From Escherichia coli (lineage in GTDB: Bacteria; Pseudomonadota; Gammaproteobacteria; Enterobacterales; Enterobacteriaceae), in assembly GCF_003790525.1 (NCBI RefSeq), contig NZ_CP033635.1: a stretch of DNA of 64,000 bases, one strand, 5' to 3'. Of the stretch, positions 17,369-41,183 are shown in pieces. Both the position numbers and the translations under genes were made by a program. The notes beneath the pieces were generated by a model. It was not told the origin of the DNA. It did no database searches and saw only the letters and a program-made list of their open reading frames with translations. Each line of letters opens with the position of its first letter. The stretch's first letter is position 1.

Positions 17369-19501
17369 ATGCTTTCTACTCAGGATATAAACGGTTTTTT
17401 TAATGCTGTTGACTCTCTCAAAAGGTTTAAACGAGCAGAAATAAGGGACAACAAAGATAAACCACTTATTGATTCACTTTACACAGATCTATTGCCAAAC
17501 AATCACGTCTTCAAAATGTGCTACGGGGAAAACACTACATTTTTAATTGGAAGAAAAGGCACAGGAAAATCCACAATAATTCTTAAACTTGAAAGTGAGT
17601 ACAGAAAAGAATCTTCATACCTCCCATGCTATATAGATACAAAAACAGTATTCGAAAGTGTTAGAGGTGAGTATCAAAAAATAGACTACCTAAAAGGGAA
17701 GATACCTGAAGAGCATCTAGAAAAATATTTAGTCGAGCGTGCATTCATTAAAAACATCTTGAAATCAATCGGTGACGAATTGAATATTCGAGCAGAAAGC
17801 ATATTCTCAAAACTAGCAGGGATTGTTAATGCAAGCAAAAAACAAGCGGTAAAAGCAAAAATAACAAAACTACTTTTAATGGTGGACAATAACCAAATAA
17901 TAAAAGAAATTGAAATACCCGTAATAACAGAAGTAAATACTAAACTTACTAAGGCGAACGAATCAGAAAATGGAACTACCCAAAACTATAACTCTGAGCT
18001 AACTGTAAAAATCGGAACATCACAACATGAAGGTGGTGGAAAAATAGGAGCGGTAAAAGGAATCACCTCAAGACAGAAAAACAATGACGCTTGGGAAAAG
18101 AGTTTCTCTACAGCCCTTCTAAAGGTTTTTCAAATCACATCAGTAATTGAAGAAATTAAAATCATATTAAGAGAGCTAGGAGTAAAAAAGCTTGTAATAT
18201 TTTTAGACGATTTCTCTGAAGTTGAAGAGAAGACGCTAAAAAACTTCGTCGATGTTGTACTTGCTCCGCTAAATAACTGGGCTAATGATTTCATTTGTTT
18301 TAAAGTCGCTGCCTACCCAAGTCGCATATATTATGGCGACATTGATGTTGGCAAAATAGATGTGGTAAATTTAGATTTTTATAATTTATATTCTAATTAT
18401 GATAAATCTACGATGGAATCCTTATCAGCTGACTTCACCAAGAGACTTTTAAATCAAAGGCTTAATCAGTTTTGCACATTGAAGTTTGAAGATTATTTTG
18501 ATACATCTTCAGCTACTCCAGAAGAGTACTATGATCTTATATTTAAAGTATCCATGAATGTCCCTAGAATTATAGGATACATTCTTTATTACTGCCATCA
18601 AACCAATGTATCTCTTGGCAGAAAAATAAATAAAGGCTCAATCGAGAAAGCAGCTCAGACTTATTATGAGCAAGTTGTATCTAAGTTTTTCGATATTGCC
18701 ACGCATAGTCTGATGTCTTTCAGTGAAAAAGTTTCTGAACTTCAGCAAAAAGAGATTCTAAATCTCTTCGTTCAGAAATTAAAAACGATTAAGCGACAAA
18801 TAATAACAAATGAACTAACTGGCACAATTTACAATAGAGACAGAACAAATCCTTATTGTAGTCATTTTTATTTTCAACCTAATCTTGAACATTTTCTGCG
18901 TACATTGGAGCTTAATTTCTTCATTACCAAATATAATGAATTAGTAAATAAAGACGGAAACAAGGTCTCGATATATGGAATAAATTATGGATTAGCTCGA
19001 AGTGAAAACCTCAAATGGGGAAAACCTGAAGGTAATCAGTTCCGTAGTTATTTCGTAGAAAGACCATTTGATTTCAACAAAGATATCGAAGATTTCTTAA
19101 GAGAATCGAAAAAAATCGTATGTCTTAATAGCTCTTGTGATAAAACCTATCCATATGAAGAACTTGCATTTCTTGAATATAATAAAATGAGATGTATTGA
19201 ATGCCAGTCGCCTGTTGAAGTAAGATCGTTTTCTGAAAGTATCAGTTCTGAAATATCTAAAATTGACAACGCTAAACTTTTACCAAAATTAGAATTAATG
19301 ATATTACATGAACTGAATAAGGCAGACGATCATCTCCTAGCTCGAGACATTGCTGAGGAACTAGACGCTTCATCACAATTAATTGCCAAACGGGCTGAAA
19401 AATTAGACAGAAAAGGTCTTGTTTTTAGAGATAAAAGTGATGCATTAATTAAGTATTCAATAACAAATAAAGCAGTAGAAGGTTATTTCTATGATGACTA
19501 A
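17369..19501 (+). CDS. Uncharacterised P-loop NTPase with C-terminal zinc ribbon and wHTH-like tail; sole cargo gene of the P4 cos-int slot; candidate anti-phage protein
   Basis: 710-aa ORF; RBS GGAGA 7 nt upstream; Walker A GRKGTGKST (res 61-69); Walker B-like LVIFLDDFSE (res 275-284); C-x4-C-x18-C-x2-C near res 585-610; terminal wHTH-like segment; visibly AT-rich versus flanking genes. Confidence 0.85.
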   Translation: MLSTQDINGFFNAVDSLKRFKRAEIRDNKDKPLIDSLYTDLLPNNHVFKMCYGENTTFLIGRKGTGKSTIILKLESEYRKESSYLPCYIDTKTVFESVRGEYQKIDYLKGKIPEEHLEKYLVERAFIKNILKSIGDELNIRAESIFSKLAGIVNASKKQAVKAKITKLLLMVDNNQIIKEIEIPVITEVNTKLTKANESENGTTQNYNSELTVKIGTSQHEGGGKIGAVKGITSRQKNNDAWEKSFSTALLKVFQITSVIEEIKIILRELGVKKLVIFLDDFSEVEEKTLKNFVDVVLAPLNNWANDFICFKVAAYPSRIYYGDIDVGKIDVVNLDFYNLYSNYDKSTMESLSADFTKRLLNQRLNQFCTLKFEDYFDTSSATPEEYYDLIFKVSMNVPRIIGYILYYCHQTNVSLGRKINKGSIEKAAQTYYEQVVSKFFDIATHSLMSFSEKVSELQQKEILNLFVQKLKTIKRQIITNELTGTIYNRDRTNPYCSHFYFQPNLEHFLRTLELNFFITKYNELVNKDGNKVSIYGINYGLARSENLKWGKPEGNQFRSYFVERPFDFNKDIEDFLRESKKIVCLNSSCDKTYPYEELAFLEYNKMRCIECQSPVEVRSFSESISSEISKIDNAKLLPKLELMILHELNKADDHLLARDIAEELDASSQLIAKRAEKLDRKGLVFRDKSDALIKYSITNKAVEGYFYDD

Positions 19502-19561: not shown

Positions 19562-20827
19562 TTAGATCCTAGCAAAATCATAGGCCGTAATATTTTGATA
19601 TCGATTAATATCTAGATAGTCAGCCCACCATTGCATCATCAAACGACGCTCTTCTAAATGCTCTGAAGTATGAATATAAGCTGCGCGTACATTGTTACGT
19701 TCTGAATGGCTCAATTGACGTTCTATCGCATCATCACTCCATAGTCCCGATTCCCCCAACGCCCCGCGTGCCATAGTCCTAAAACCATGGCCACATACTT
19801 CTGTTTTTGTGTCATATCCCATTACACGCAATGCATTGTTTACCGTATTTTCACTCATAACCTTAGTTGCGTCATGATCGCCCGGGAAAAGAAAGTCTCT
19901 ATCACCACTAATCTGCTTAAGCTGTTCTAACAATATAATCGCCTGTCGGCTAAGCGGAACTATATGCTCCTCTTTCATTTTCATGCCACGATACGAGTAA
20001 CGTACGCCTTTAATTTCTTCTCGTTTAGCAGGAATACGCCAAGTAGCGTTATCAAAATCAAATTCTTTCCAACGAGCAAAACGTAATTCACTTGAACGAA
20101 CAAAAGTTAGTAAAGAAAGCTCAACCGCAATTTTCGTCATCATACGCCCACGATATACATCAAGACGTGCCAAGAACTCATGGAAACGATGTGATGGTAG
20201 CGCCGGGTAGTGCCGCGTTTTCGCCGTAGATAACGCACCGGCCATATCAATTGCAGGATTTGAGTCTACATAATCGTTCTGAACAGCATAGCGCATAATA
20301 GCAGTGACACGTTGCTGAAGACGCTGCGCTACATCATGCTTACCACTGGCATCAACTTTTTTTATCGGTGCCAAAAGGTGACTAGTTTTAAGCTGTCGAA
20401 TATCAGACGAGCCAATATAGGGAAAGATATAAAGCTCTAGATAGCGAAGAACCCGTGCCCGATGTTCCTCACTCCAACGCTTATTGCTGGCATGCCATTC
20501 ACGAGCAATAGTTTCAAAATTATAAGCACCAGCATTAACTGCTTGGGCCTCTTTCTGTACTGCTTTTGGATCTATACCTTGCACCAGCAACTTTTTGGCT
20601 TCATCCCTTCTAGCTCTAGCTTCAGCAAGCGTCACAGTCGGCCAAACACCAAAAGCAAGACGATCCTCTTTTTTGTCGGAAGGTCGTCTATATTTCATAC
20701 GCCAATATTTAGAGCCTTTGACAGAAACCTCGAGGTACAAACCGCCACCATCGGCCATTTTATAGGTTTTATCTTTTGGCTTTGCGGTCTCGACCTGTCT
20801 GGCGTTGAGCTTCATTTGGGGGCACAT
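19562..20827 (-). CDS. int: P4-type tyrosine integrase, intact
   Basis: 421 aa; adjacent to the tRNA-Leu 3' end; conserved HGFRT motif and C-terminal catalytic region. Confidence 0.9.
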   Translation of the reverse strand: MCPQMKLNARQVETAKPKDKTYKMADGGGLYLEVSVKGSKYWRMKYRRPSDKKEDRLAFGVWPTVTLAEARARRDEAKKLLVQGIDPKAVQKEAQAVNAGAYNFETIAREWHASNKRWSEEHRARVLRYLELYIFPYIGSSDIRQLKTSHLLAPIKKVDASGKHDVAQRLQQRVTAIMRYAVQNDYVDSNPAIDMAGALSTAKTRHYPALPSHRFHEFLARLDVYRGRMMTKIAVELSLLTFVRSSELRFARWKEFDFDNATWRIPAKREEIKGVRYSYRGMKMKEEHIVPLSRQAIILLEQLKQISGDRDFLFPGDHDATKVMSENTVNNALRVMGYDTKTEVCGHGFRTMARGALGESGLWSDDAIERQLSHSERNNVRAAYIHTSEHLEERRLMMQWWADYLDINRYQNITAYDFARI

Positions 20828-20978
20828 CCCTAATCGAAGTTAAGATGCCCCCAATTATGCCCCCAATGACATCCGGATTTCAACGTACAACCTCGGACGA
20901 CTCGGGACGTTAAAATCACTGCAAGCATTGATTTTTAAGGAATTATTGGACTTTCTCGGATGGTCTAGGAAGTGCTTA

Positions 20979-21063
20979 TGGTGCCGAAGGCCGGACTCGA
21001 ACCGGCACGTATTTCTACGGTTGATTTTGAATCAACTGCGTCTACCGATTTCGCCACTTCGGC
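20979..21063 (-). tRNA. leuX: tRNA-Leu (anticodon CAA)
   Basis: 85-nt cloverleaf on the minus strand (GCCGAAGTGGCGAAATCGGTAGACGCAGTTGATTCAAAATCAACCGTAGAAATACGTGCCGGTTCGAGTCCGGCCTTCGGCACCA). Confidence 0.95.
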
Positions 21064-36019: not shown

Positions 36020-37009
36020 GTGTGGAGGGAAGAGATGACGGCACAACAAAGTGATGCGCTGCGTGAGATTGCTAATAAAGCCAGAGTTACCACCATTCTT
36101 CAGAGTAAGGCCTGGAAAGATACCCAGCGAATACTGAAGCGCAGCGGACTTGTGTGCAGAGAACGATCAGAGCCGTTTGATCCGGAGAAACATTTTGACT
36201 GTTATACGGTGCGTTATCTGTACCTGCTTAACATAATAGCACTTGAGCTAAGGCCAGATACAAGGCCAGATACACGGATTAAGGTTGAGGTGGGCCACTG
36301 GTATCGTATGACGGGTAAACGTTTATCACTTAATGTCCCGCCTTTTATGCTGATTCCGCGTAATATCCGGAGAAAAGTGGATGGATTCAGGCAATCAGAA
36401 GGTAAAACAACAAAAAAACCGACTCAACCGTTCACGGGCAGTTTGTATGAGGTTTTGAGCGGGGATATTGATTCGGCTAAGCTGGACGCATGGATTGCTG
36501 GACTACCTCTGAGTGCGCTGGAGGGAGCGAAGGAAATCCCAATCATGGGATTTAGTCCATGGGTTGTAGCCAAATCTGTTCGTCAGTCTGCATCCCCGAC
36601 GTTTGAACTTTTTTATCAGGAGTATCAGTCCCTGGTATTAAAATCTGTTTTTAAACTGGAACCGGGATTTGAACAACTTTTAACAAGACTAAGCTTTATA
36701 AAACAATCAATCCTCAGCAAACAACAATACAGGGTTAAATCGCAGTTACTGGAGAGACTGGGGAATGTGTTGTTTTTCACGTTGCTTTATAACCAGGGAT
36801 GTCCGGGAGAGTTTATAAATACACTTGTGGAAAAGGAGGACATTTATCTGAAAGCGTCCCCCGGGGAAGAAAAGGTGAAAGCACACCAGAAGCTGATTAA
36901 CTACATTGAAGAGTTCTGCAACGAAATGACGGAAAAGTACCTGATGCCTGCAGCCGGGAGACACTACAAAAAGAGGAAAACTGCCAGGAGTGGAAGTAGT
37001 GAAAGTTAA
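36020..37009 (+). CDS. Hypothetical protein, unrecognised family
   Basis: 329-aa ORF; convergent with and overlapping (4 bp) the next ORF. Confidence 0.5.
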   Translation: MWREEMTAQQSDALREIANKARVTTILQSKAWKDTQRILKRSGLVCRERSEPFDPEKHFDCYTVRYLYLLNIIALELRPDTRPDTRIKVEVGHWYRMTGKRLSLNVPPFMLIPRNIRRKVDGFRQSEGKTTKKPTQPFTGSLYEVLSGDIDSAKLDAWIAGLPLSALEGAKEIPIMGFSPWVVAKSVRQSASPTFELFYQEYQSLVLKSVFKLEPGFEQLLTRLSFIKQSILSKQQYRVKSQLLERLGNVLFFTLLYNQGCPGEFINTLVEKEDIYLKASPGEEKVKAHQKLINYIEEFCNEMTEKYLMPAAGRHYKKRKTARSGSSES

Positions 37010-37845
37010 TCCAGTCTACCGTTCAGAATCAGTTGTTCCAGAATAGCCTGCTGTGTTGTTTTCCTCGCTCTGGTCAGTCTGTCCAGAGCGCTTTTTGCGG
37101 ACGGTGATATCTTTACGTTAATTTGTACCCGTTTATCTTTTTTCCCGTCGATAAACTGTTTTCTGAAAGCGTCGTGCATTCTTCTGTAAAAATGTTCTTC
37201 AGCGCAGATCCCGACATGAAACTCTTTGTCGTTGTACTGGCATGGTATATCTCCGGGATACAGTATTTTAAGCAATGCTAAGATGGCAATGCGTTTCTCT
37301 TCGTTATTGACGGGGCAAAACCAGGTTAAATGTGACTCGGGAATACGAATGTTAATATATTTCCATGCCCACTCGAGTTGTTCCGGATTTTTTTTAAGCC
37401 ATGTAGCCTGGTTTTTGTTCCCGATTTCCTTCCAGTTTTTATAGATGGCATCAACGAGATTTTTAGTAAAAGCTTCCGTTTCTATCTGTGCTACACTATC
37501 AATCCATCGCCTGATGATCTCCAGCCGAATCTCATGGGTTGAGGATGACAGCTTACTGATGCAAACAGATTCTTCAGAAGTGGGAAGTTGCATGGTAAGT
37601 TCATAGTAACTGCTCCCTGACACTTTCATATCCTTTATCACCAGACAAAACCAGAATGCTGCAACTTTATCCTTAAGCCATTCAGGTAAATGCCTATCCT
37701 GCACATGACGCGATTTTAACGAATTCAGATTTTCTCCATTTTTCGATAAAAATTGATTCTGTTTATCTCGCCCCTGATCGTTAATCCGTAATGTCATCTG
37801 TTTTCTCCTTCTTTCCGGGTTATCTGTTATTAAACCCCATATCAA
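37006..37845 (-). CDS. Hypothetical protein, unrecognised family
   Basis: 279-aa AT-rich ORF; likely start at the internal MTLRINDQ. Confidence 0.5.
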   Translation of the reverse strand: MIWGLITDNPERRRKQMTLRINDQGRDKQNQFLSKNGENLNSLKSRHVQDRHLPEWLKDKVAAFWFCLVIKDMKVSGSSYYELTMQLPTSEESVCISKLSSSTHEIRLEIIRRWIDSVAQIETEAFTKNLVDAIYKNWKEIGNKNQATWLKKNPEQLEWAWKYINIRIPESHLTWFCPVNNEEKRIAILALLKILYPGDIPCQYNDKEFHVGICAEEHFYRRMHDAFRKQFIDGKKDKRVQINVKISPSAKSALDRLTRARKTTQQAILEQLILNGRLD

Positions 37846-38439
37846 TAAAACGAGTGCAATGCAATAAAATTTACAAATAAAAGCATTTTGTGTTCACAGA
37901 ACGATTATTCACCAGTTATTAATGCAATAAAATATTCCTGAACTATTCCTTGATTAGGAAAAACATGCTATCAACTATGGTTCATGTGCCCCTTGTGGAG
38001 GGCGTTTTGCCGTTCGGCTGTTCTTGTGGTCAGATTAACAATCTGAAGAGTAAAGACGACAGTAATCTGTCTGTTATAGTGGCGATAAAAACACTGAATG
38101 TGCATCCTGTATGTGAAATCCGGTCATGTGGAGCAGTAAGCAATGACAGACATGCATGTTATATGTGAAGGGGGCCGGGAGACGACATAATCAGTATGGC
38201 TGTCATTCTGGTTGTAAAACGCGATCACTTTCCGGGGGTAAAAGATGATATGGAGGCTGACAAACGGTTTGCTTCGGATTGTCTTTTCTGGGGCCTGAAA
38301 TACGGGGGCAGAAAAATAATTCCAGAGTAAATCTGCTCTGTTTTTAGGACAGAAAACTCCATGCTGGCTGTAAAAGTGAGAAATCAACACCCAGTATGTA
38401 TGGAAGTCTGAAGATGTTGAGAATGTCGGTATGATACTA

Positions 38440-38640
38440 TATACACATGTTTTTATTAAGTGTTATATACATATCTTTTTAAATAGATAATTCTACACAT
38501 ATTTTACTAAGTATTTTTACTAAGCATTTCAGTAAGTGTTATACACGTATTTTCTACTAAGTGTTTTACCAGACATACACGTGTTTTCATAAACAGCCCT
38601 ATAAGTGTTTTCATTAAGCATTGCTGTACACATTGCTTTG
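38440..38640. repeat. Iteron-like cluster of short direct repeats (TAAGTGTT and TACACRTRTTTT)
   Basis: At least 4 copies of TAAGTGTT and 5 of TACAC(A/G)T(A/G)TTTT within 200 bp of noncoding DNA. Confidence 0.6.
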
Positions 38641-39522
38641 TCTGAAACTCATCCAGTTTAGTAAATCTTTACGTTAGCTAAAATCAGTTTAAAGCTGCTG
38701 TAAAACCTTTCTGTTTAAGCAATCAATCTGCTATTCGATTTTACTGATGTTGCGTTTAACCTTTTCTGAGATTTCGAGTTTCGACGTTAGCATGAGAAAA
38801 GTATCTTTACGCTAAATCAACCCGAACTTTCCTGAAGTAATCTGACGTTTTTTTCGATGTGCTTTCGACGATTCTGTTAAACGACTTTCTGGATGTTTTG
38901 ATAACAATCAGATTGAGGCATTAACGATTCCTGACGTTTTGCTTTTTCATGTAAGGTCATTGTTTTCGTCATGATGTGATTTTTCTTCTTGCATTGCGAA
39001 AGTGTGATGATTGGTTTTGGTTTTTTGATTCAGATGAGATTTACGTTATCGATGGTTAATCGTTTTTATGGTGCGTAGTGAAATGTAACATTTTCGGGAT
39101 GAGAAAATCGATTCTGATGGTGATGGGGATGATCGTGTTACGGCGTTATCTGTAAACAGGTTTTAAACGTGTCATTCGCATTCGTGATTGAGTAATGTGG
39201 TTAAGCTGTAGGTTTTGGTGTTGTTGTTGATTCACAGCGCCAGAAAGTGCTCTGATTGCGTTTCTGGTGTTTTGTTCGAATGTTCTGTGGATCCTTTTCC
39301 CTTCTGACTTTTCTCGTTGTCCATGTCGTTTTTAAATCCATTCGCTGTTCTTGAGTGTTTTTACCCTGCGTGTAGAATTATCTTTTCGTTCCGGGATGGT
39401 TTGTTCCGTTTCAATCACTCTTAATCAGAGAGTTGTAGCATTGCTCAATGCCGGATGCCGTAAAGTTTTACCGCAGTGATTAATGATGTGAAGTCAATCC
39501 AAATCAACGGAGATCTCTCATC

Positions 39523-40254
39523 ATGAATCAACCAATACACAATGCTTACTGGTTATCCCGTTTTGACAGCCTTCTCAACAGTGCCCTGGCGCAACACCGT
39601 GCCGTTTCGTTAATCCGGGTGGATTTACGTTTTCCTGAGTATATGCCTGCCACCATTATGGATACCGATTTAGATTCAGCGGTGATTTCTCGTTTTTTCG
39701 AATCCCTGAAAGCCAAAATCCAGGCTTACCAGCGGAAAAAACGACGTGCCAACAAGCGTGTGCGTGCAACCACCCTGCATTATTTCTGGTGTCGGGAGTT
39801 TGGCAAGGAAAAAGGCAGGAAACATTATCACGTGATATTACTGCTCAACAAAGATACCTGGTGCTCGCCAGGGGATTTCACCGTTCCTTCTTCGCTGGCG
39901 ACACTGATCAAGCTGGCATGGTGTAGTGCTCTGCATCTTGAGCCCTGGCAGGGTAATGGACTGGTTCATTTTTCCAGGCGGACGCCTTTCCGTAAACCGA
40001 CATCATCTGATGCTCGCCCTTCTTCCGATGATACGCCTTTGTCGGGTGGATGTTCTGATACCAGGAAGGCTTCAGACAAAAAGCCGGGTGAAGCCGCTGT
40101 TCTCTGGATCAAGCGTGGTGATGTGGAAGCGCTGCAGAAAGCCCGGAACAGAGCCAGTTATCTCGTGAAATATGAGACGAAGCAGCATGACGGTTCCGGG
40201 CAACGTAATTATGGTTGCAGTCGTGGGCCGGGGCGTCTGCTGGATGGCAGGTGA
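39523..40254 (+). CDS. Inovirus Gp2-like / YfjJ-YagK family protein
   Basis: 243 aa; motif VSLIRVDLRFPEY shared with two downstream paralogues. Confidence 0.65.
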   Translation: MNQPIHNAYWLSRFDSLLNSALAQHRAVSLIRVDLRFPEYMPATIMDTDLDSAVISRFFESLKAKIQAYQRKKRRANKRVRATTLHYFWCREFGKEKGRKHYHVILLLNKDTWCSPGDFTVPSSLATLIKLAWCSALHLEPWQGNGLVHFSRRTPFRKPTSSDARPSSDDTPLSGGCSDTRKASDKKPGEAAVLWIKRGDVEALQKARNRASYLVKYETKQHDGSGQRNYGCSRGPGRLLDGR

Positions 40255-40610
40255 GCCCTGTAAAACGACATCCGGTGCCTGAGCTTATGCTACAGGACGT
40301 TGGCTGACGCCCTTAGCTCGTTTTCTGAAAAAGTCGTCCTGAAGTCATGCAACGGTATTTTTCTCTGCTTTCGCTCCTGGAAACACTCCGTCGGTAAAAC
40401 CTTACTGTCCTGCTTAATGATGTGAACCGAAGTCAACGGAGAGCATTCATTCTGAACCTGCATCCGGTGTTCTGTCCCTTGTCGGTTACCTGATCTTCCC
40501 GTTCTGCCGCGGTTTTTCACTTATTCCATCAACCCCATACGCAAGCCATAACACGTCAGCGCATCCACGGGCAGGACGCGTTGTGGGCTGCGTATAACGG
40601 AACATATCTT

Positions 40611-41183
40611 ATGAATGCTATCCCTTATTTCGACTATAGCCTTGCCCCCTTCTGGCCATCTTATCAGAACAAAATCATCGGCGTTCTCAACCGTGTGTTG
40701 CGCGAGCAGTCCTGCTCCCGAATACGGCGGATCCTGCTTCGTCTGCCGGGGGAACATGGCAACATCTTCAGCGACAGAAAAACCTGGTTCGGTATGGCCT
40801 TTATCGAAACCGTCAGTGCGCTGATGAATGCAACCCCCGGACGCGACCTCTGCTGGCTCCTGACACGTCATCCTGAAAAACCGGAATACCACGTGGTGCT
40901 GTGCGTCAGACAGGAATATTTCGACGGCCCTGAGCTGGACCGGTTGATTCTGGATGCCTGGAGCAACGTACTGGGCTTCGCGTCACCGGGTGAAGCAGCA
41001 CCGTACCAGAAACAGATAACCCGGGATGTGGTGCTGGACAGTTGTTCACCGGACTGCGAAGAGAGACTCAAAGAGCTGATATGGGCGTTCAGTGATTTCG
41101 CCCGCGATCGTCGTGGTGTGCGCGATCCGGAAGCCCGTTACCTCGCCGGTAATCCCTGGTATCCCGTAGCAGGCCAGCTCTGA
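40611..41183 (+). CDS. Inovirus Gp2-like / YfjJ family paralogue
   Basis: From the ATG at 40611 (MNAIPYFDY...); motif RIRRILLRLPGEHG. Confidence 0.6.
   Translation: MNAIPYFDYSLAPFWPSYQNKIIGVLNRVLREQSCSRIRRILLRLPGEHGNIFSDRKTWFGMAFIETVSALMNATPGRDLCWLLTRHPEKPEYHVVLCVRQEYFDGPELDRLILDAWSNVLGFASPGEAAPYQKQITRDVVLDSCSPDCEERLKELIWAFSDFARDRRGVRDPEARYLAGNPWYPVAGQL

What the first reader, a model, noticed from the sequence alone, without database searches (positions are those of the whole stretch)
38440..39520. Iteron-like repeat cluster followed by ~0.8 kb of ORF-free, strongly T- and G-skewed DNA
38440..38640 contains at least 4 TAAGTGTT and 5 TACAC(A/G)T(A/G)TTTT motifs in irregular tandem. 38700..39500 has no ORF of 60 aa or more and is visibly T-rich with G over C on the plus strand, unlike neighbouring coding DNA. 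This could be a replication or transfer origin, a regulator binding array, or a long noncoding RNA upstream of the Gp2-like genes.
Basis: seen in the sequence. Interest (0 to 1): 0.55.

Follow-up and report, generated by a model that had tools for sequence, protein, structure and literature searches.

The report
Upstream control region of Rep-like gene
The repeats and the T-rich stretch are the non-coding control region in front of a replication-initiator-like gene carried by a genomic island found in a third of E. coli genomes; it looks like a promoter plus a protein-binding repeat array, possibly doubling as a replication origin, and not an RNA gene or a dead gene.

Summary
38442-38640 holds 4 exact TAAGTGTT (7 TAAGYRTT) and 4 exact TACACRTRTTTT, all on the + strand. 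38700-39500 has no ORF above 46 aa and the strongest T-over-A skew in the window.

The 1.68 kb at 37846-39522 is unannotated DNA upstream of an 'inovirus Gp2 family' gene. That gene has HUH nickase motifs and a Rep-like fold. The region occurs in 1,878 of 5,426 complete E. coli genomes, up to 8 copies each.

Gp2 loci from other genera (30-43% protein identity) share one layout:
- an invariant 13-mer, ATAAYTCCAGAGT;
- 60-120 nt on, an AT-rich -10-like box, which at K-12 yagK coincides with a published sigma-70 promoter;
- lineage-specific direct repeats directly after that box;
- a leader of 60 to 1,090 nt.

The T-rich tract is the expanded leader of the E. coli lineage. It shows no coding signal, no conserved or stable RNA structure and no Rfam match. 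It diverges faster than Gp2 synonymous sites but keeps its composition and a constrained core.

Best reading: promoter plus repeat array bound by an island protein, probably Gp2, followed by an unstructured leader. A rolling-circle origin remains possible (about 0.3). Function is untested.

The parts
38316..38328 (+). Box 1: the 13-mer ATAATTCCAGAGT. It lies outside the finding's coordinates but belongs to the same module.
   Evidence: There is one exact copy in the window. It occurs exactly once in each E. coli-type locus and in Providencia, L112 and L115, whose Gp2 proteins are 39-43% identical to the window's. All 13 columns are invariant in an 11-sequence alignment with 59% mean column identity. 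No consensus RNA structure is predicted. Variants occur upstream of K-12 yfjJ and yagK and in loci L357-L362.
38323..38345 (+). Terminator-like hairpin CAGAGTAAATCTGCTCTG followed by TTTTT, overlapping box 1.
   Evidence: The scan reports 7 pairs, a 4-nt loop and a T run. The hairpin and T run are kept in all E. coli upstream families but not in Providencia or L112.
38410..38446 (+). Box 2: a conserved AT-rich promoter-like box (AGATGTTGAGAATGTCGGTATGATACTATATAC). It contains TTGAGA at 38417-38422 and TGATACTAT at 38432-38440.
   Evidence: Conservation here is 0.89-0.94 among 11 loci. The same box (TGTYKG..TA.GTAWTATAT) lies 62-118 nt after box 1 in all distant Gp2 loci. The hexamer TA[A/C/T]TAT always keeps T1, A2, A5 and T6. 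At K-12 yagK this box coincides with the sigma-70 promoter TTTAGA-16-TATAAT found by genomic SELEX.
38442..38640 (+). Direct-repeat ('iteron-like') array with units TACACRTRTTTT and (C)TAAGYRTT in irregular 12-13 or 25-nt register.
   Evidence: Copy number differs between homologous loci through whole-unit gains and losses. Different direct repeats occupy the same position in Providencia (CTATGTGTTT x3), L359 (22-nt unit x3.5) and L115.
38661..38672 (.). Distal copy of the palindrome GTAAANNTTTAC.
   Evidence: The pattern occurs only twice in the 64-kb window (0.05 expected), both times in this region. The distal copy is intact in 23 of 31 homologous loci and split by an insertion in 6 of 31.
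38641..39445 (+). T-rich, G-over-C, C-poor tract without ORFs. It is a leader or spacer specific to the E. coli lineage.
   Evidence: Composition is. K is 0.18-0.28 against Gp2 dS of 0.05-0.19. No reading frame shows purifying selection. No RNA structure signal is present. The substitution spectrum is strand-symmetric.
38996..39170 (+). Constrained core inside the T-rich tract: TTTTGATTCAGAT, TTTACGTTATC, ATCGATTCTGAT, CAGGTTTTAA.
   Evidence: There are four invariant runs of 10 nt or more among 31 sequences, against 0.17 expected and at most 2 in 2000 permutations. The core contains a small ORF at 39078-39155 that stays open in most variants but has pN/pS of 2.7.
39351..39378 (+). Proximal sigma-70-like site TTGAGT-16-TAGAAT, 145 nt before the Gp2 ATG.
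   Evidence: It is the only + strand promoter-like match in 37600-39700. Most variants read TTGTGT ... TAGGTT here.
39446..39522 (+). Almost invariant 77 nt before the ATG. It includes the 18-bp palindrome GCCGTAAAGTTTTACCGC (39456-39473) and GGAG (39509-39512).
   Evidence: Conservation is 0.95-1.00 and K is 0.013-0.08. The palindrome is present in 31 of 31 loci. The C/G variant at 39458 turns a C-C mismatch into a pair.
39523..40254 (+). Gp2 / YagK-YfjJ family gene: an HUH Rep-like nickase of 243 aa.

Best explanation
The finding is the E. coli-lineage form of a conserved cis-acting control region upstream of the Gp2/YfjJ-family gene, an HUH Rep-like nickase, in CP4-type genomic islands.

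Proposed mechanism:
1. Box 2 (38410-38446) is a sigma-70 promoter firing towards Gp2. This is inferred from the conservation pattern and from published RNA-polymerase binding at the K-12 paralogue yagK.
2. The direct-repeat array lies at about +1 to +200 of that promoter. It is a multi-site binding array for a sequence-specific protein encoded by the island. Gp2 itself is the most likely binder, because Rep proteins bind direct repeats next to their gene; the adjacent AlpA-type excisionase/regulator is the alternative. Binding would autoregulate or gate transcription. This step is inferred.
3. The 0.9-kb T-rich tract is a long untranslated leader or spacer added in the E. coli lineage. It is non-coding, unstructured and C-poor, so it should be a poor Rho substrate on the + strand. 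It is also AT-rich, so it is a likely H-NS target. It evolves fast apart from a 170-nt core and two copies of one palindrome. The properties are shown; the role is inferred.
4. A second, proximal promoter-like site and an invariant 77-nt 5' region with an 18-bp palindrome give local control of Gp2 translation or transcription. This step is inferred.
For: The region always lies directly upstream of Gp2. It is found in 1,878 of 5,426 complete E. coli genomes, and RefSeq annotates no feature there in most records.

The order box 1, box 2, direct repeats, leader, Gp2 recurs in Providencia, Brenneria, L112, L115, L357-L362 and K-12 yfjJ and yagK. Leader length ranges from 60 to 1,082 nt.

The box 2 hexamer varies only at its two least critical positions (TAATAT, TACTAT, TATTAT). 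At yagK the same box is the sigma-70 'constitutive promoter' TTTAGA-16-TATAAT, in a spacer also flagged as H-NS-bound (PMC3946193).

Repeat units differ between lineages, and copy number changes by whole units.

Coding is excluded. Structured RNA is not supported.

Composition is conserved in 31 of 31 E. coli-type variants. Constraint is patchy.

Gp2 is Rep-like.
Against: There are no transcription data for this locus.

The window's box 2 lacks a canonical -35/-10 pair, and the scanning tool did not call it. The only + strand call is the proximal site at 39351-39378, so the T-rich tract may not be transcribed from box 2 at all.

No binding protein has been identified.

The invariant 13-mer box 1, about 100 nt upstream of box 2, is not explained by a simple promoter model.

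Some loci have 0 or 1 repeats or an insertion in the core (L003, L014), so neither is essential for persistence of the island.

The T/G skew is absent from most distant loci.
Confidence: 0.5

Rival explanations
1. The module is a rolling-circle origin, or a transfer origin, for the HUH protein Gp2. A conserved box (box 1 or box 2) would be the nick site. The lineage-specific direct repeats would be the high-affinity 'bind' locus, as in the pMV158-family double-strand origin. After excision the island would replicate or be mobilised from here, and the T-rich + strand would be the first DNA displaced. This reading does not exclude a promoter role for box 2.
For: Gp2 keeps the HUH and Tyr motifs and has an HUH-nickase fold. 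Its only named relatives are replication initiators. In known families the origin lies next to the rep gene. In those families the nick sequence is shared across the family, while the bind locus consists of 2-3 direct repeats of 5-21 bp up to 100 bp away (PMC1851628). Here a 13-mer is invariant across genera, whereas the repeats differ by lineage and lie about 115 nt from box 1 and 0-15 nt from box 2. K-12 yfjJ box 2 reads CATCTTGATAGGTAATATA, which contains the CTTGATA of the pC194/pUB110 origin (PMC5031790). The resemblance to the phiX174 origin rests on memory and is only a lead. The + strand is no more structured than its shuffles; where the G-over-C skew begins (38750-39050) it is less so (z +0.2 to +1.4).
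Against: No conserved hairpin presents either box; the palindromic character of box 2 is trivial AT alternation. CTTGATA is present only in the K-12 yfjJ copy, not in the window. Many Gp2 genes are frameshifted (214-aa variants). No replication of these islands has been reported in the literature searched. Box 2 has published evidence of being a promoter. The mutation spectrum shows no single-strand deamination bias.
Confidence: 0.3
2. The region is functionless AT-rich spacer DNA of a horizontally acquired island, silenced by H-NS. The repeats would arise and vary by replication slippage, and the skew would be a compositional accident inherited by descent.
For: K in the body exceeds the dS of the neighbouring gene. 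Repeat number is unstable, and some loci have none. Insertions are tolerated. The skew is lineage-restricted. The yagK spacer is H-NS-associated.
Against: Invariant runs cluster far beyond chance. The same palindrome occurs twice and is conserved. Composition stays constant at 16-30% divergence with a symmetric mutation spectrum. Direct-repeat arrays recur at the same position in unrelated sequence contexts. Box 1 and box 2 are conserved across genera.
Confidence: 0.12
3. The region encodes an independent non-coding RNA, either a long U-rich RNA from box 2 or small RNAs on either strand. It might act with the island's ProQ/FinO-family protein.
For: The promoter-like box 2 points into the tract. 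A terminator-like hairpin lies at 38323-38345. The island encodes a ProQ/FinO-family gene, frameshifted in L001. One small hairpin at 39239-39268 keeps its pairing through G-U changes on the + strand.
Against: Rfam finds nothing. The structure conservation index is at most 0.39 and alignment z-scores are weak. No thermodynamic signal appears on either strand. No terminator-like site lies inside 38440-39520. Sequence turnover is fast.
Confidence: 0.06
4. The region is decayed coding sequence, or it holds small protein genes. Candidates are a hydrophobic type-I-toxin-like peptide at 39078-39155 and the minus-strand 'hypothetical proteins' annotated in some genomes.
For: The small ORF at 39078 stays open in most variants, with a basic N-terminus and a hydrophobic tail. 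PGAP-82 aa ORFs on the minus strand in some genomes.
Against: The small ORF has pN/pS of 2.7, and no frame anywhere in the tract shows purifying selection. T-rich DNA yields hydrophobic ORFs in any frame. The minus-strand ORFs change frame between variants. Indels are not multiples of three.
Confidence: 0.02

Closest known systems
Double-strand origin of pMV158-family rolling-circle plasmids (nic locus plus bind locus; PMC1851628)
   Same: The origin lies next to an HUH initiator gene. A short sequence is shared across the family, and 2-3 or more lineage-specific direct repeats lie within about 100 bp and serve as the initiator's primary binding site. An A/T-rich stretch sits between the elements.
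   Different: No conserved inverted repeat presents the candidate nick sequence. The repeats are irregular, with two interleaved motifs and 0-7 copies. They are followed by a 0.9-kb tract with no counterpart in those plasmids. Neither nicking nor replication has been shown. The element is a chromosomal island of tens of kb, not a small plasmid.
Promoters of the K-12 paralogues yagK (CP4-6) and yfjJ (CP4-57)
   Same: The same gene family has the same box 1 and box 2 upstream. The yagK box 2 is a published in vitro sigma-70 holoenzyme site in an H-NS-flagged spacer (PMC3946193).
   Different: The K-12 leaders are short: 60 nt for yfjJ and about 170 nt by my count of the sequence for yagK. They have no TACAC/TAAGTGTT array and no T-rich tract. 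The window's box 2 carries an 8-nt insertion relative to yagK and no clean -35/-10 pair.
Iterons and nonanucleotide hairpin of geminivirus/CRESS-DNA virus origins (own knowledge)
   Same: An HUH Rep binds lineage-specific short direct repeats beside an AT-rich conserved nick motif (TAATATTAC). The origin overlaps the rep promoter, so Rep autoregulates. Box 2 contains TAATAT in most lineages.
   Different: No GC-rich stem flanks box 2. The resemblance of TAATAT is weak in AT-rich DNA. It is recalled from memory and was not tested.
Iteron-type theta origins of plasmids (oriV with a RepA/pi-type initiator; own knowledge)
   Same: A cluster of direct repeats lies in AT-rich DNA next to an initiator gene.
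   Different: No DnaA box or IHF consensus is present in 37846-39522. The repeats are not regular 17-22-bp units in helical phase. The neighbouring protein is HUH-type, not Rep_3 or RepA.
Pseudomonas genomic-island family with intY, alpA, RadC, YqaJ and a Gp2-like core gene (PNAS 2025, PMC12595487)
   Same: It has the same kind of island backbone: integrase, AlpA, RadC, a Gp2-like protein and defence cargo. Gp2 is listed there as a probable core function of unknown role.
   Different: That paper does not describe an upstream cis element. I found no sequence relation to the module studied here.

Membership tests
Rolling-circle double-strand origin (dso: nic plus bind) | An adjacent initiator of the HUH endonuclease superfamily with intact catalytic motifs | tested here: met
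Rolling-circle double-strand origin (dso: nic plus bind) | A short nick sequence conserved across the whole family | tested here: inconclusive
   Two conserved boxes exist, but nothing shows that either is nicked. CTTGATA occurs only in the K-12 yfjJ copy.
Rolling-circle double-strand origin (dso: nic plus bind) | The nick sequence is exposed in the loop of a conserved inverted repeat | tested here: not met
   RNAalifold finds no consensus pairs around box 1 in 11 diverse sequences. Hairpins around box 2 are inconsistent AT-only palindromes.
Rolling-circle double-strand origin (dso: nic plus bind) | Lineage-specific direct or inverted repeats close to the nick site that bind the initiator | tested here: inconclusive
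   Lineage-specific direct repeats lie next to box 2 in E. coli, Providencia, L359 and L115. Binding has not been tested.
Rolling-circle double-strand origin (dso: nic plus bind) | Supports initiator-dependent nicking and replication | not testable with these tools
   This needs biochemistry and a replicon assay.
Sigma-70 promoter with downstream operator array | A -10 hexamer with conserved -11A and -7T at a fixed place relative to the gene module | tested here: met
   The hexamer reads TAATAT, TACTAT or TATTAT in 11 divergent loci, with T1, A2, A5 and T6 invariant.
Sigma-70 promoter with downstream operator array | A recognisable -35 element or extended -10 at proper spacing | tested here: inconclusive
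   The window has TGn before TACTAT and TTGAGA, which lies 12 or 17 nt from the candidate hexamers. The tool did not call the site. At yagK the site reads TTTAGA-16-TATAAT.
Sigma-70 promoter with downstream operator array | RNA polymerase binding or a mapped transcription start | not testable with these tools
   The only evidence is for the paralogous yagK locus, from genomic SELEX (PMC3946193).
Iteron-type theta origin (oriV) | DnaA boxes and IHF sites flanking regular iterons | tested here: not met
   No TTWTNCACA or WATCAANNNNTTR match lies in 37846-39522. The repeat period is an irregular 13 nt.
Structured non-coding RNA (any Rfam family or a new one) | A covariance-model match, or conserved or stable secondary structure | tested here: not met
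   Rfam at E up to 1 gives only a chance hit inside the Gp2 CDS. The structure conservation index is at most 0.39. All z-scores lie above -1.8.
Protein-coding gene, pseudogene or type I toxin small ORF | A reading frame conserved under purifying selection | tested here: not met
   The small ORF has pN/pS of 2.7, and no frame shows low pN/pS. Minus-strand ORFs are frame-inconsistent.
Q/AlpA(Pae)-type antitermination leader | An antiterminator of the 21Q-like fold together with intrinsic terminators in the leader | tested here: not met
   P. aeruginosa AlpA is a protein of at least 142 residues (residues up to H142 are cited) with eight helices and a 21Q-like fold (PMC9371919). The island's AlpA is a 78-aa excisionase-type protein; the Pfam family PF05930 was seen on the orthologues in other loci, and PHROGs classes the window's protein as excisionase and transcriptional regulator. 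No terminator-like site lies in 38440-39520.

The most novel reading that the evidence does not exclude
Box 1, box 2 and the direct repeats form the origin (nic plus bind) of a previously unrecognised rolling-circle replicon. The replicon would be driven by the Gp2/YfjJ HUH protein. CP4-type islands and pathogenicity-island backbones of Enterobacterales, now regarded as inert cryptic prophages, would then amplify or produce single-stranded DNA after AlpA/integrase-mediated excision. The invariant 13-mer would be the nick or termination site.
Probability: 0.27. Interest if true: 0.75.

Novelty: new member of a known kind. Interest (0 to 1): 0.45.

Why it matters
Gp2/YfjJ/YagK proteins are uncharacterised genes that sit in the backbone of islands present in a third of complete E. 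coli genomes, often in several copies. These islands carry defence systems, toxin-antitoxin pairs and virulence cargo. How they are maintained or moved after excision is unknown.

This work defines a conserved cis module next to the Rep-like gene: an invariant 13-mer, a promoter-like box and lineage-specific repeats. That gives concrete DNA substrates for binding, nicking and replication assays.

It also explains about 1.7 kb of DNA that RefSeq leaves unannotated or annotates with spurious small ORFs. If the module is only a promoter with an operator, it is an ordinary regulatory region with an unusually long leader.

Tried and rejected
Rfam. A search of 37000-41000 at E up to 1 gave only a chance PhotoRC-I hit inside the Gp2 CDS.

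Structured RNA. I ran sliding RNAalifold with column-shuffle controls on 22 diverse sequences, both strands. I also computed single-sequence z-scores in 16 windows per strand. Neither gave a signal. Whole-region folds were uninformative.

Coding.
- The ORF list shows nothing above 46 aa.
- A pN/pS scan in three frames found no purifying selection.
- The hydrophobic small ORF at 39078 looked attractive but has pN/pS of 2.7.
- The minus-strand PGAP 'hypothetical proteins' are frame-inconsistent between variants.

Mutational origin of the skew. The substitution spectrum is strand-symmetric: C>T 0.42 against G>A 0.39 per site.

Internal duplication. I found no evidence of it as the source of the T-rich tract: only weak self-matches lie outside the array.

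AlpA as a Q-like antiterminator acting on a long leader. This was rejected because P. aeruginosa AlpA is an unrelated, larger protein and the leader has no terminator-like sites.

CsrA-type GGA motifs and other k-mers. I saw only modest enrichments, for GTTTT, GATG and TCTGA at z of about 3.6-3.9 before multiple-testing correction.

DnaA and IHF sites. There are none in the region.

Box 1 as a module boundary. BLAST clustering suggested this, but alignment shows the upstream DNA is diverged homologous sequence.

Box 1 as an RNA hairpin. No consensus structure was found.

Collection scans.
- The genome-contig scan with the Gp2 protein returned only 2 loci.
- The 14-mer box 1 scans of viral contigs returned only chance hits with no Gp2 nearby.

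Other searches. The phage collection has no DNA match. Literature searches for YfjJ/YagK, for Gp2 and for the motif strings found no description of this region.
Full report
CONTEXT

The window is an E. coli chromosome. It holds leuX tRNA-Leu(CAA) at 20979-21063, ORFs whose lengths fit the idn genes and yjgR of K-12 by my recollection, and a genomic island starting near 29.1 kb. The best-matching annotated genome, at 97-98% identity, shows the layout. On the minus strand lie CbtA/YeeU toxin-antitoxin, DUF987, RadC, antirestriction, DUF932 and a GTPase. Two hypothetical genes follow. Next comes about 1.7 kb with no annotated feature. After that, on the plus strand, come an 'inovirus Gp2 family protein', a hypothetical gene, an AlpA-type HTH, a second YagK/YfjJ protein and a ProQ/FinO pseudogene. 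The finding lies in the unannotated gap, 37846-39522.

- TAAGTGTT has four exact + strand copies within 153 nt, and TAAGYRTT has seven. TACACRTRTTTT has four exact copies, not five; two more are degenerate.
- Tandem Repeats Finder sees an irregular 13-nt period.
- No ORF above 46 aa overlaps 38700-39500.
- The tract is 40% T and 16% C. Its AT skew of -0.30 is the most extreme T-over-A skew of any 800-nt stretch in the window. G exceeds C only between about 38800 and 39400.

DISTRIBUTION

- The region matches 1,878 of 5,426 complete E. coli genomes, with up to 8 places per genome and almost all on chromosomes.
- It has no match in the phage collection and four in plasmids.
- In every locus inspected it lies directly upstream of the Gp2 gene, while the genes further upstream vary.
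- A metagenome scan for a conserved 21-mer gave 93 more loci. After de-replication at 97% identity, 31 homologous variants remained.
- All 31 keep almost the same base composition. Repeat copy number ranges from 0 to 7 and changes by whole units.

WHAT THE T-RICH TRACT IS NOT

- It is not a known RNA.
- It is not a conserved or stable structure on either strand. The structure conservation index is at most 0.39, and z-scores run from -1.8 to +1.4.
- It is not coding. No frame shows purifying selection. The one small ORF that stays open, at 39078-39155, has pN/pS of 2.7. The minus-strand 'hypothetical proteins' that PGAP calls in some genomes change frame between variants.
- I found no sign that it is a product of strand-biased mutation: the substitution spectrum is symmetric.

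HOW IT EVOLVES

The body (38640-39445) has K of 0.18-0.28 against the window. The synonymous divergence of the adjacent Gp2 gene in the same pairs is 0.05-0.19. The last 77 nt before the ATG are almost invariant, with K of 0.013-0.08.

The body is nevertheless not uniformly free. There are four invariant runs of 10 nt or more, against 0.17 expected. They cluster in a core at about 38996-39170.

The palindrome GTAAANNTTTAC occurs only twice in 64 kb, at 38661 and 39460. The proximal copy is present in 31 of 31 variants. The distal copy is intact in 23 of 31 and split by an insertion in 6 of 31.

THE NEIGHBOURING GENE

- Gp2 matches Pfam YagK_YfjJ_C and, more weakly, REP_ORF2-G2P.
- A 22-sequence alignment shows the three motifs of HUH initiators: RVDLR, HYHVxLLLNKD and YLxKxxTK.
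- PHROGs gives weak hits to replication initiation proteins.
- No solved structure is detectable by sequence.

THE KEY COMPARATIVE RESULT

I fetched Gp2 loci whose proteins are only 30-43% identical to the window's. They come from Providencia, Brenneria, several unnamed assemblies, IMG/VR contigs and the K-12 genes yfjJ and yagK. Apart from two boxes the upstream DNA is barely alignable (51% mean column identity across six loci), yet the same order of elements recurs.

1. Box 1 is a 13-mer, ATAAYTCCAGAGT. It is invariant in E. coli, Providencia, L112 and L115, and slightly varied elsewhere: TAATATCAGAGT, TAACTTCAGAGT, TAATTTAAGAGT, TAATTGCAGAGT. In the window it lies at 38316-38328.

2. Box 2 is an AT-rich box, TGTYKG..TA.GTAWTATAT, lying 62-118 nt further on. 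Its hexamer TA[A/C/T]TAT keeps T1, A2, A5 and T6 in all loci. That is the pattern expected of a sigma-70 -10 element.

3. Short direct repeats follow immediately, and they differ by lineage:
   - E. coli has TACACRTRTTTT and TAAGYRTT.
   - Providencia has CTATGTGTTT three times.
   - L359 has a 22-nt unit 3.5 times.
   - L115 has AGAGAGTRTAT and TATAGAAC units.

4. A leader of 60 nt (K-12 yfjJ) to 1,082 nt (the window) runs up to the Gp2 ATG.

Box 1 has no consensus RNA structure, so it is a primary-sequence signal. The T/G skew of the leader is shared only by Providencia. Other lineages have A-rich leaders.

EXPERIMENTAL ANCHOR

In K-12 the spacer upstream of yagK contains box 2: GATGTTGGATAGGTATTATATAATGG. 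A genomic SELEX study lists a sigma-70 'constitutive promoter', TTTAGA-16-TATAAT, for yagK in exactly this sequence, and flags the spacer as H-NS-associated (PMC3946193). This is the only experimental evidence I found. It concerns a paralogue, not this locus.

INTERPRETATION

The repeat cluster is real and is the lineage-specific part of a conserved cis module upstream of a Rep-like gene. I think the most likely reading is as follows.

- Box 2 is a promoter.
- The repeats form a multi-site binding array, at or just after the transcription start, for an island protein. Gp2 itself is the first candidate and the adjacent AlpA-type regulator the second.
- The T-rich tract is an expanded, non-coding, unstructured leader or spacer specific to the E. 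coli lineage.
- Its low C content would make the + strand RNA a poor Rho substrate. Its AT-richness would make the DNA an H-NS target. Both points are inferences from composition and general knowledge.

A proximal promoter-like site at 39351-39378 and the invariant 77 nt with an 18-bp palindrome suggest a second, local layer of control.

The main rival is not exclusive of this reading: the module may be a rolling-circle or transfer origin. The pattern is a family-wide short box plus lineage-specific direct repeats within about 100 bp of it, next to an HUH gene. That is the nic-plus-bind architecture described for pMV158-type plasmids (PMC1851628). The K-12 yfjJ copy of box 2 even contains the CTTGATA of the pC194/pUB110 origin (PMC5031790). 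Against this rival, no conserved hairpin presents either box, CTTGATA is absent from the window's copy, and nothing shows that these islands replicate.

MARGINAL OR REJECTED READINGS

A functionless spacer cannot explain the conserved boxes, the clustered invariant runs or the recurring repeat arrays. A structured non-coding RNA, decayed coding sequence and a theta-type iteron origin are not supported; for the last, there are no DnaA or IHF sites. An AlpA-dependent antitermination leader is rejected because P. aeruginosa AlpA is an unrelated protein.

NOVELTY

I found no paper describing this region or the boxes. A 2025 PNAS paper lists Gp2-like proteins among the probable core genes of a Pseudomonas island family, with no assigned role. 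In kind, the finding is an ordinary cis-control region, possibly an origin, beside a Rep-like gene. Three things are new:
- the definition of the conserved module;
- the extreme conservation of the 13-mer;
- the unusually long, compositionally constrained leader in E. coli.

Noticed in passing
window 38316-38328; also L017 3650-3662, L112 2575-2587, L115 2089-2101, L116 about 7420, L365 (yagK upstream): A 13-nt box, ATAAYTCCAGAGT, is invariant across genera although its flanks are only 50-60% identical. It has no consensus RNA structure, and its function is unknown. It could be a nick site, a regulator site or a recombination site.
   Followed up: partly
window 38323-38345: A good intrinsic-terminator-like hairpin with a T run overlaps box 1 on the + strand. 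It is kept in all E. coli upstream families. It may end an upstream transcript, or the 44-aa ORF at 38196-38330 whose last codons (IIPE-stop) are box 1 itself.
   Followed up: partly
window 39078-39155 (+): A small ORF, MKCNIFGMRKSILMVMGMIVLRRYL, has a basic N-terminus and a hydrophobic tail. It stays open in most of the 31 variants, with GTG or TTG starts, but has pN/pS of 2.7. It may be a leader peptide or a chance product of T-rich DNA.
   Followed up: yes
window 38661-38672 and 39460-39471: The same 12-bp palindrome, GTAAANNTTTAC, occurs twice, 799 bp apart, and nowhere else in the 64 kb. It brackets most of the T-rich tract. It could be a pair of operators, with looping, or a repeated hairpin.
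   Followed up: partly
window 40395-40450: Part of the invariant Gp2 5' region (GTAAAACCTTAC...TTAATGATGTGAA..GTCAACGGAGA) is repeated downstream of Gp2, before the next ORF (40581-41183). This suggests a shared regulatory or translation-initiation cassette.
   Followed up: no
window 39523-40254 and proteins P0047, P0061, P0073, P0078: The E. coli 243-aa Gp2 carries an insertion of about 45 aa that is predicted disordered (pLDDT below 50, residues 153-189) and is absent from other genera. Several 214-aa variants are frameshifted and lose the Tyr motif.
   Followed up: partly
L003 4451-6812, L014 2400-4000: In some E. coli islands, NCTC86 among them, the T-rich tract is interrupted directly after GATTCAGATGAG by about 1.2 kb carrying a minus-strand ORF (176 aa by its annotated coordinates). 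The conserved core is therefore dispensable for persistence of the island.
   Followed up: no
L363 2104-2352, L364 2667-2840 (corresponding to window about 39170-39420, - strand): RefSeq/PGAP annotates 57-82 aa 'hypothetical proteins' on the A/C-rich minus strand in some genomes. Their frames are inconsistent between variants, so they are probably spurious calls.
   Followed up: yes
window 19562-21063: A separate island sits at leuX: tRNA-Leu(CAA) at 20979-21063 on the minus strand, with a 421-aa ORF (19562-20827) directly beyond its 3' end. The position and size suggest a P4-type integrase, but I ran no search on it.
   Followed up: no
window 17369-19501: A 710-aa ORF has an A-over-T skew (+0.31) as strong as the T-over-A skew of the finding. 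The skew magnitude alone is therefore not unique in this window.
   Followed up: no
L001 15949-16457 (window about 42.3 kb): The island encodes a ProQ/FinO-family RNA chaperone, frameshifted in the closest genome. This hints at an RNA partner somewhere in these islands.
   Followed up: no
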